From assembly GCA_951406725.2 (NCBI GenBank), contig OX597818.1, forward strand, positions 144,212,001 to 144,276,000: DNA of 64,000 nt, read 5' to 3'. Positions 32,456 to 35,312 of the stretch are shown piece after piece. The translations under genes and the position numbers were made by a program. The DNA is from Octopus vulgaris (taxonomy: Eukaryota). Numbering within the stretch: the stretch's first letter is position 1; the number at the start of each line of letters is the position of its first letter. The notes beneath the pieces were generated by a model that saw only the letters and a program-made list of their open reading frames with translations, did not search any database and was not told where the DNA came from.

Positions 32456-32711
32456 TTATTTCAAATTCTGTATTTTAAAAACCCAAGCCCATCGGCAGGG
32501 TAACTGGTGAGGATAGACTTTTGGTATTTCAATGATTATATTATTTCCGGATACTGTCCACTTAATATCTCCTTCTTGATATCCAAGCCAAGTAACTAAT
32601 GTGTCTTGAGACGGTTTTGGAACTCCAAGCTCAAGAGAGCCAGAATAGGGTAGTTCAAGAACAATTGCATAAACTATAGGATTACCATTTCCATTTGATT
32701 TCGATGTATAC
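32456..32711 (-). CDS. FUCA: Alpha-L-fucosidase terminal coding exon (C-terminal beta-sandwich)
   Basis: ttttaag acceptor completes the TG|G Trp codon; YTSKSNGNGNPIVYAIVLELP...LPCRWAWVFKIQNLK then TAA; the stop overlaps an AATAAA. Confidence 0.93.
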
Positions 32712-33755: not shown

Positions 33756-33990
33756 TATATATGTATACATGTGTGTGTGTGTGTATAGGTATATATATAT
33801 ATATACGTACACCTGTGTGTATATGTGTGTATATTTATATATACATACACACAGATGTATGTATATATATGTATACCTATACATACAGATGTATGTATAT
33901 ATATGTATACCTATACACACACACATGTATGTGTATATACATATATATATATATATATAGCACATATAAATTAAAAACAGAACACAAAAA

Positions 33991-34077
33991 GGTACACGTG
34001 TTTCAAGCTTTATAAACAATCCGTTATTACATCAGTGTATTATTGATATAAAAGATGGTTTAAAGCTCTCTTCAGCC
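33991..34077 (-). ncRNA. Minimal type-I hammerhead ribozyme-like motif (Penelope-type, palindromic helix III)
   Basis: GG-CUGAAGA-GAGCUUUA...UAAAGCUU-GAA-ACACGUGU-A-CC; canonical core intact but helix I only about 2 bp. Confidence 0.65.
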
Positions 34078-34313
34078 GCAAACATTGTTGGTCCAAAGAT
34101 TACATCACAAAATAAAAAATATAAATAGTACATGTAGTATTACCCATTATAATAGGTTTATCATATCTCCTTGAAAAAGTGTATTTGTAAAATTTCCTAA
34201 CTGCATAAATGTATAAAGATTCATTGGATTTCGAAAATCTGCCCATATTGTATCACCAATCAGCATAGAGTGAATGTTAAATGGATTGTATATATATATA
34301 TACATATATGTAT

Positions 34314-34760: not shown

Positions 34761-35312
34761 GTCGTTCACAAAAAATTCAGCGTTTGCAATACTTTTCTCG
34801 TTCGGCGTCAACAGCCCTTCTTATCTTGTTCTCCCTGTCCTGTCTTTTACTGTTATATATATTTTTTTTACTGTTTATATATATATTTTTTTTACTGTTT
34901 ATATTTTTGTACTGTCGTTACTGTCTCATTTTTTTACCATTTTTTTACCATTTTTTACCCCTCTGCGAAAAGATCTCAGAATTTTAATTGATTTGCTTCT
35001 TGTTGAAGATACGTCTCGCTTTTATCCTTCGAAACGTAGAGTAGATGAAACCTTAGCGACTGAAGAAGGAGTTTTTTCGTTGTGTTAACTGTCCTGTACT
35101 CCATTTTTTGTTGTTTTTAAAAAAATGTCCTGTTCCTTTGGTTTGTGTCTATGTTTTCGTTTCTCTATGTGTTCGACGTCCCTTTGGTGTCCTGTACTCA
35201 TATATGCGTGTATATGTACATGTAGAGGTAGGTACGTACATATATGTTTATATATATGCATATGTTTTATTTCTTTTATTAATATATATATATATATATA
35301 TTATGTATATAT

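What the first reader, a model, noticed from the sequence alone, without database searches (positions are those of the whole stretch)
33991..34077. Intact-core hammerhead-like motif in the sense strand of the last fucosidase intron
Seen on the minus (gene-sense) strand: CUGAAGA (34075-34069), an 8-bp helix II base (GAGCUUUA/UAAAGCUU) enclosing a long insert with its own hairpin, GAA, the perfect palindrome ACACGUGU, a GUA cleavage triplet, and a GG/CC helix I. Inference: a Penelope-type minimal ribozyme with an unusually extended helix II lies in the host pre-mRNA. It might cleave on dimerisation with transcripts of the same family. Helix I is very short, so activity is uncertain.
Basis: partly seen in the sequence, partly recalled or inferred. 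Interest (0 to 1): 0.7.

Follow-up and report, generated by a model that had tools for sequence, protein, structure and literature searches.

The report
Damaged long-armed hammerhead from Penelope retroelement
This is the tail end of a jumping-gene copy sitting in a host intron; it carries a self-cutting RNA motif with an unusually long side arm shared by tens of thousands of repeats in this genome, but a small deletion found only in this copy likely stops it from cutting the host message.

Summary
The motif is real, at the stated coordinates, on the sense strand of the last intron of an alpha-L-fucosidase gene. It is the 3' end (about 330 bp) of a 5'-truncated Penelope-like retroelement inserted in (TA)n. 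Longer copies run upstream into an RT/GIY-YIG ORF with Hydra-clade motifs. At least 408 copies keep both core boxes. The 64-nt helix II arm is a family trait, and long arms dominate this genome: 27,488 core matches with 40-70 nt arms (533 in the reversed control) against 10,147 shorter ones. Across 39 clusters, helix I and the palindromic helix III covary, as dimer cleavage requires. The published Hydra-clade hammerheads I saw have short arms. Co-folding predicts it can supply the catalytic half against an intact sister RNA but is rarely the strand cut. Host pre-mRNA cleavage is therefore unlikely. No cleavage or RNA data were available. The scan had already noted long-armed hammerheads elsewhere in this genome. 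Verdict: a decayed copy of a new structural variant of a known ribozyme kind.

The parts
33960..34290 (-). 5'-truncated 3' end (pLTR region) of a Hydra-type Penelope-like element, ending at the family's short 3' end, between (TA)n tracts
   Evidence: 8 substitutions in 270 aligned nt (3.0%) from the majority of 29 close copies
34076..34081 (-). Helix I 5' arm (UUGCGG), intact and as in the family
34069..34075 (-). Catalytic box CUGAAGA (C3-A9)
34061..34068 (-). Helix II base, 5' strand; G10.1 pairs with U11.1 (wobble, family-wide)
34013..34060 (-). Long helix II extension, with distal hairpin 34051-34044 / 34034-34027
   Evidence: 64 nt between the two core boxes
34005..34012 (-). Helix II base, 3' strand
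34002..34004 (-). GAA box (G12-A14)
33994..34001 (-). Palindrome ACACGUGU; predicted intermolecular helix III (8 bp, -10.3 kcal/mol)
   Evidence: covariation across clusters
33992..33993 (-). Predicted cleavage site, after A17 of GUA
   Evidence: position by hammerhead numbering; not tested
33989..33992 (-). Remnant of the helix I 3' arm (CC) followed by a net 7-nt deletion private to this copy
   Evidence: 1 of 76 aligned rows; junction 18-mer occurs once in the genome
32712..37884 (-). Last intron (5,173 nt, GT-AG, phase 2) of the alpha-L-fucosidase gene that hosts the insertion
32456..32711 (-). Last coding exon of the fucosidase gene
   Evidence: identified by translation and by recalled likeness to the FUCA C-terminus

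Best explanation
The motif is a long-armed minimal hammerhead at the 3' end of a truncated Penelope-like (Hydra-type) retroelement copy in the fucosidase intron, and a private deletion of its helix I 3' arm likely leaves the host pre-mRNA uncut. Shown: the anatomy, the family, the parent ORF, the lesion, and covariation of helices I and III across families. Inferred for the source element: two transcripts pair through the 8-nt palindrome; one supplies the helix I 5' arm, CUGAAGA, helix II and GAA, and the other supplies UA, the cut site and the helix I 3' arm. The element's own RT-endonuclease protein probably assists, as reported for an Anolis element. Inferred for this copy: reverse transcription began on an uncut (or re-joined) RNA downstream of the hammerhead, since the copy includes about 30 nt 3' of the cut site; it stopped after about 330 nt and was pasted into (TA)n. 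The copy then decayed neutrally. It keeps the catalytic half but offers only 2 bp of helix I as the strand to be cut, and it has no family partner in the same pre-mRNA. It is therefore predicted to be spliced out as inert intron RNA.
For: Family: 408 copies with both boxes and the base helix exact, control 0; variable 5' and fixed 3' ends. Of 30 loci, 15 end in (TA)n at the short end, 13 carry the longer tail and 7 have an inverted partial copy within 1.5 kb. Parent: L112, L115, L116, L153 and L155 join the family hammerhead to RT and/or GIY-YIG remnants, 39-87% identical in pieces to an intact 842-aa sister ORF. The family tail aligns with the 5' UTR that follows the hammerhead in a sister element, cut site 197 nt before the ATG. 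Covariation in 39 clusters: inner palindrome pairs complementary in 31 (shuffled mean 11.0; 0 of 20,000 shuffles reach it); helix I pairs 1-4 Watson-Crick in 36, 31, 26, 19 (shuffled 12.7, 10.4, 10.6, 9.0). Lesion. Helix I duplex -8.0 kcal/mol with the family arm against -0.6 with this copy's. Co-folding with 21 sisters: as the cut strand median P 0.061, 0.007, 0.000 for flanks of 8, 12, 25 nt; as the catalytic strand 0.99, 0.98, 0.36. No second family copy in 84 kb covering the gene. No post-insertion selection on the core: 12 of 240 core cells changed (5.0%) against 4.0% in the insert and 5.2% in the 3' flank, 20 copies. Papers: single minimal hammerheads showed no cleavage and dimers low cleavage (PMC4209133); the Anolis hammerhead needs the element's protein, and uncut RNA is the main insertion template (PMC11167929).
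Against: The Drosophila virilis Penelope hammerhead has a natural 2-bp helix I (PMC4209133), so 2 bp does not prove inactivity. Folding programs ignore hammerhead tertiary contacts and protein help, and even intact homodimers scored above 0.5 in only 11-13 of 21 cases. The clusters are not phylogenetically independent and all come from the first 9 Mb of one contig. The deletion was not shown in a read or contig that bridges it. No intact ORF of this exact family was found, and no tree with reference Hydra proteins was built.
Confidence: 0.75

Rival explanations
1. The copy is still cut at a low rate in the fucosidase pre-mRNA when a family transcript pairs with the palindrome, lowering or truncating host mRNA.
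For: Core, palindrome and helix II are intact. The 8-bp helix III is stable. A 2-bp helix I occurs naturally in D. virilis. Hundreds of family copies could supply partners. Related retrozymes are reported as depleted from introns, which hints at a cost (bioRxiv 10.64898/2026.07.22.740005).
Against: Cut-competent pairing P is at most 0.2 with all 21 partners. G10.1-U11.1 replaces the usual G-C. No partner in cis. No intact ORF of this family was seen. Cutting inside an intron need not block splicing (recalled).
Confidence: 0.12
2. The intron RNA acts as a catalytic-only strand that cuts intact family transcripts in trans while sparing itself, a host-side brake on the element.
For: The lowest-energy co-fold with L008 is exactly this hammerhead, P about 0.9; median 0.98-0.99 with short flanks over 21 partners.
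Against: The median falls to 0.36 with 25-nt flanks. Any sense-transcribed copy with an intact core could do the same. One deletion shows no selection, and 17 of 72 copies have 2 or fewer contiguous helix I pairs through decay. Intron RNA is short-lived (recalled) and the family looks inactive.
Confidence: 0.08
3. The long-armed motifs are not ribozymes at all but protein-binding or template signals that keep a hammerhead-like sequence.
For: The arm is far longer than in published Hydra hammerheads. The 10.1-11.1 pair varies between families (G-U, A-C, G-C). Hammerhead mutants did not affect insertion in vitro in the Anolis element.
Against: The catalytic boxes, cleavage triplet, helix I and palindrome are all kept with compensatory changes across clusters, as expected of selection for cleavage. 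Long stem II is generally tolerated by hammerheads (recalled).
Confidence: 0.05

Closest known systems
Minimal type I hammerheads (min-HHR) of metazoan Penelope-like elements (Cervera and de la Pena 2014, PMC4209133; read parts 1-2 of 4: results, discussion, start of methods)
   Same: Type I order, pLTR location, 7-8 bp helix II base, short helix I, palindromic helix III, predicted dimer cleavage, thousands of dispersed single copies from truncated elements.
   Different: 64 nt between the boxes with a distal hairpin; G-U instead of the conserved G10.1-C11.1; no extra base between 9 and 10.1; in this copy helix I is cut to 2 bp by a deletion. The paper's supplements were not read.
Hydra clade of C-terminal-endonuclease Penelope-like elements (Craig et al. 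2021, PMC8557442; passages, section 11, supplement parts 1-2 and a search for Hydra-1_Obim)
   Same: RT followed by GIY-YIG with CxC-x-C linker, CxxC and CxH around the conserved E and N, no CCHH, (TA)n targets, hammerhead near the 3' end, inverted 5'-truncated copies and an optional tail. RT motifs match the printed Hydra-1_Obim alignment by eye.
   Different: Hydra hammerheads in supplementary file S2 have about 12-26 nt between the boxes (read), against 51-70 nt here. The element is longer (over 4 kb, with an Asn-rich linker and about 2 kb of 3' UTR, against under 3 kb). The family reads DKI and its sister RWA/DKT. File S2 does list a plant PLE-X hammerhead with an arm of about 50 nt, so long arms are not without precedent.
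Anolis Poseidon element PAc (Frangieh et al. 2024, PMC11167929; passages)
   Same: Two fixed 3' ends downstream of the hammerhead (short end and tail); copies include sequence beyond the cut site.
   Different: Different clade. The tail is about 85 nt here, against the 30-40 bp described. The ATG lies 197 nt after the cut site in the sister element rather than inside the hammerhead.
Animal non-LTR retrozymes (PMC7229834, passages; bioRxiv 10.64898/2026.07.22.740005, part 1 of 5 and passages)
   Same: Type I hammerhead, dispersed repeat, link to Penelope elements.
   Different: Retrozymes are short non-coding tandem units; this family is not tandem here and continues upstream into an RT-EN ORF.

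Membership tests
Penelope minimal type I hammerhead | CUGANGA and GAAA boxes with an NUH triplet in type I order | tested here: met
   exact core plus palindrome in 56 of 76 rows (many rows were found through part of this motif)
Penelope minimal type I hammerhead | Palindromic helix III / loop 3 | tested here: met
   ACACGUGU; complementary in 31 of 39 clusters
Penelope minimal type I hammerhead | Helix II base of 7-8 bp | tested here: met
   8 pairs here; first 7 pairs kept in 73-76 of 76 rows, one-sided changes only
Penelope minimal type I hammerhead | Helix I of 4-5 bp | tested here: not met
   2 bp in this copy; met by the family (53 of 72 parsed rows have at least 5)
Penelope minimal type I hammerhead | G10.1-C11.1 pair | tested here: not met
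   G-U in 58 and G-C in 10 of 72 parsed rows; 405 against 15 exact 21-mers
Penelope minimal type I hammerhead | Located in the pLTR of a Penelope-like element | tested here: met
Penelope minimal type I hammerhead | Self-cleavage as a dimer | not testable with these tools
   folding only
Hydra-clade PLE (parent element) | Single RT ORF with C-terminal GIY-YIG lacking CCHH, with CxxC and CxH around the conserved E and N | tested here: met
   by inspection of translations of L115, L116, L145, L150; Pfam found nothing above its cut-offs
Hydra-clade PLE (parent element) | CxCX5C linker | tested here: inconclusive
   X5 in L123, L145, L150; X4 in L115, L116
Hydra-clade PLE (parent element) | RWK and DKT motifs | tested here: inconclusive
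   RWK/DKT in L150, RWA/DKT in L145, DKI in family copy L153
Hydra-clade PLE (parent element) | Insertion in (TA)n | tested here: met
Hydra-clade PLE (parent element) | Groups with Hydra references in an RT tree | not tested
   reference proteins were compared by eye only
Non-LTR retrozyme | Short non-coding tandem units, one hammerhead each | tested here: not met
   single copy in 84 kb; longer copies lead to an ORF

The most novel reading that the evidence does not exclude
Long-armed minimal hammerheads (40-70 nt helix II, about 27,000 copies in dozens of families, not matched by Rfam at this locus) are a distinct class whose arm is a functional platform, for example for the element's RT-endonuclease to switch cleavage on. 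Intronic sense copies such as this one are filtered to 'catalytic-only' forms that spare the host pre-mRNA yet can cut family transcripts in trans.
Probability: 0.1. Interest if true: 0.7.

Novelty: new variant of a known kind. Interest (0 to 1): 0.33.

Why it matters
For the locus itself, little: it is one decayed repeat copy. For the class, about three quarters of the above-background minimal hammerhead matches in this genome have a 40-70 nt helix II. Rfam missed this copy, and published descriptors may miss the class, so ribozyme counts in cephalopod-like genomes could be far too low. The role of Penelope hammerheads is an open question. Dozens of families with covarying palindromes and helix I arms give natural sets for testing dimer specificity and what the long arm does. 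The asymmetric lesion here is also a ready-made natural test of the two-molecule model: catalytic half intact, substrate half broken.

Tried and rejected
Rfam scan at E<=10: no hammerhead, only microsatellite-driven miRNA noise. Pfam on five ORFs: nothing above cut-off. Poly(A) signal hidden in the arm: A[A/T]UAAA in the last 30 nt of 6 of 39 clusters against 2.3 expected, 6 against 4.6 anywhere in the arm, and mostly in one related group; not supported as a general rule. Covariation in the distal hairpin: it folds in all three subfamily majority sequences, but the comparative fold of 76 rows kept only the 7-bp base and no two-sided change was seen. Arms fold better than mononucleotide shuffles (mean z -2.1; 35 of 68 below -2), which is a weak control. 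U11.1 as CpG decay after insertion: unlikely, since it is near-fixed (405 against 15) while CpG sites are changed in 18.5% of cells. Partner in cis: two other long hammerhead-like motifs lie on the gene's sense strand, but their palindromes pair poorly with this one (-2.7 and -0.9 against -10.3 kcal/mol). Sequencing runs: no RNA holder listed on record; only assembled contigs, so no ends, strand or expression. In 2 of the 4 runs, contigs cover 33950-33988 with no indel or loose end listed at the junction, but bridging is not shown; the 4 runs have no cover there. Lunse et al. (RNA Biol, dimer cleavage of Penelope hammerhead variants) is not held; it is known to me only through the review PMC6765202 (passages) and may describe long-stem variants. 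The paper on minimal helix I length in trans hammerheads is recalled only (one search found one citing review, listing only). Literature searches for prior description: searches found no paper on long-armed hammerheads in octopus or in Hydra elements; the 'long helix II' of PMC13725137 means 6 bp (passages); the giant squid paper lists 235 Rfam hammerheads (passage). Supplements of PMC4209133 and of the bioRxiv preprint were not seen and could bear on novelty.

Full report
Observation. The host gene is an alpha-L-fucosidase (PF01120 exon hits on the minus strand). The motif lies in its last intron, 37884-32712, about 1.3 kb before the 3' splice site. Rfam does not see it, and the 151-nt region is not unusually stable (z -0.49), but helix II is well defined (pair probabilities 0.84-1.0 for the first six pairs). 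The genome is 2.8 Gb; that it is octopus-like is my inference from its size and repeats.

It is a repeat. A DNA search gave 977 candidates, 40 scored, at about 90-96% identity. Exact patterns give 405 and 408 copies with controls of 0. Copies have variable 5' ends and two fixed 3' ends. Of 30 loci taken in genome order, 15 run into (TA)n shortly after the hammerhead, 13 carry a tail of about 85 nt, 2 fit neither rule, and 7 have an inverted partial copy within 1.5 kb. These are the structural marks of Penelope-like elements described in PMC8557442. The window copy spans about 34290-33960, uses the short end, and is 3.0% diverged from its closest relatives' majority.

Parent element. Walking upstream leads through about 2 kb of AT-rich UTR to a GIY-YIG domain and RT remnants in L112, L115, L116, L153 and L155. 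A protein search found a younger sister family with 842-aa open frames and more distant ones. The motifs fit the Hydra clade as defined in section 11 of PMC8557442, with small departures listed in the membership test; no tree was built. In sister element L146 the hammerhead also stands 5' of the ORF, and our family's tail aligns with that 5' UTR. So the motif is a pLTR hammerhead.

The long arm is a class feature. Sister families have 51-70 nt between the boxes. Genome-wide, the core pattern with a 40-70 nt spacer matches 27,488 times (reversed control 533), and with 9-39 nt 10,147 times (control 619); a few sites count in both. I examined 100 loci: the first 30 hits of each search plus 40 picked by eye for diversity from the other 70 listed long hits, all from the first 9 Mb of one contig. 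They gave 97 distinct motifs, 68 long, in 39 clusters at 75% identity. The inner palindrome pairs are complementary in 31 of 39 clusters and helix I pairs 1-4 are Watson-Crick in 36, 31, 26 and 19, all beyond every shuffle. Kinship between clusters inflates these numbers, but the pair types are varied. This is good evidence of selection for a two-molecule hammerhead in the source elements. Only a few of these families were tied to Hydra ORFs here; 1 of the 30 three-kb loci tested showed ORF sequence nearby, and earlier scan notes assign some long-armed families to retrozymes. Published Hydra hammerheads have about 12-26 nt between the boxes, though a plant PLE-X motif has about 50. Structure in the distal arm is supported only by folding energy, not by covariation.

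The lesion. The family forms a 5-6 bp helix I (53 of 72 parsed rows, 4 rows unparsed). The window copy has a net 7-nt deletion two bases after the cut site, seen in 1 of 76 rows and once in the genome. Another 16 parsed rows have 2 or fewer contiguous pairs through point changes, so decay of helix I is common. In the dimer model each active site takes the 5' arm and core from one RNA and the cut site and 3' arm from the other (Fig. 1A legend of PMC4209133, and my reading of it). The deletion therefore hits only the substrate role. Co-folding agrees: with 21 of 29 sisters (those matching the core pattern and exact palindrome) the window RNA is predicted to form the site that cuts the partner (median P 0.99, 0.98, 0.36 for three flank lengths) and almost never the site that cuts itself (0.061, 0.007, 0.000; maximum 0.20). 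There is no second family copy in 84 kb covering the gene. In 20 copies found through an upstream query, core positions are no better kept than neighbouring sequence, as expected for neutral decay.

Mechanism and limits. Single minimal hammerheads showed no cleavage and dimers little. The Anolis one needs its element's protein, and uncut RNA is the main template. Our copies include sequence beyond the cut site, which fits copying from uncut or re-joined RNA. Against the inert reading stands the natural 2-bp helix I of D. virilis and the crudeness of secondary-structure models. No raw RNA reads were available, so neither cleavage nor expression was tested.

Novelty and score. The locus is an ordinary decayed insertion of a known kind of element. 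The long-armed form is a structural variant that I did not find described in the searches, with one key paper unavailable. The scan's own earlier notes record it elsewhere in this genome. Interest 0.33.

Noticed in passing
window 35020-35070 (+): Hammerhead boxes in reverse order (GAAAC before CUGAAGA), antisense to the gene; related motifs in L080, L120, L150, L153, L160, L191. It resembles the rewired hammerheads that earlier scan notes assign to Naiad elements.
   Followed up: partly
window 36444 and 60029 (-): Two more long-armed hammerhead-like motifs of other families on the fucosidase sense strand (64 and 58 nt arms, weak helix I); the first is in the same last intron.
   Followed up: partly
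window 33760-33040 (-): Decayed transposase fragment that looks Tc1/mariner-like (label recalled) in the same intron.
   Followed up: no
window 34702-34312: Abundant SINE-like repeat with inverted ends directly upstream of the element.
   Followed up: no
L030 downstream of the tail / L124 1-1250: A different Penelope-type RT and GIY-YIG ORF begins right at the end of the family tail; nested insertion or template switch.
   Followed up: no
L145-L149 family (e.g. G000:C4:50169169): Young Hydra-type family with many near-identical long open frames; its hammerhead has an A-C mismatch at the base of helix II.
   Followed up: partly
L166, L183, L184, L231, L244 groups: A[A/T]UAAA 5-13 nt before the GAA box in a related set of families; the window family has UAUAAA and a U/GU-rich stretch after the cut site. 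Possible overlap with a poly(A) signal, not general.
   Followed up: partly
L112, L115, L116, L123, L150 ORFs: Long Asn-rich low-complexity linker between RT and endonuclease, of varying length between families.
   Followed up: no
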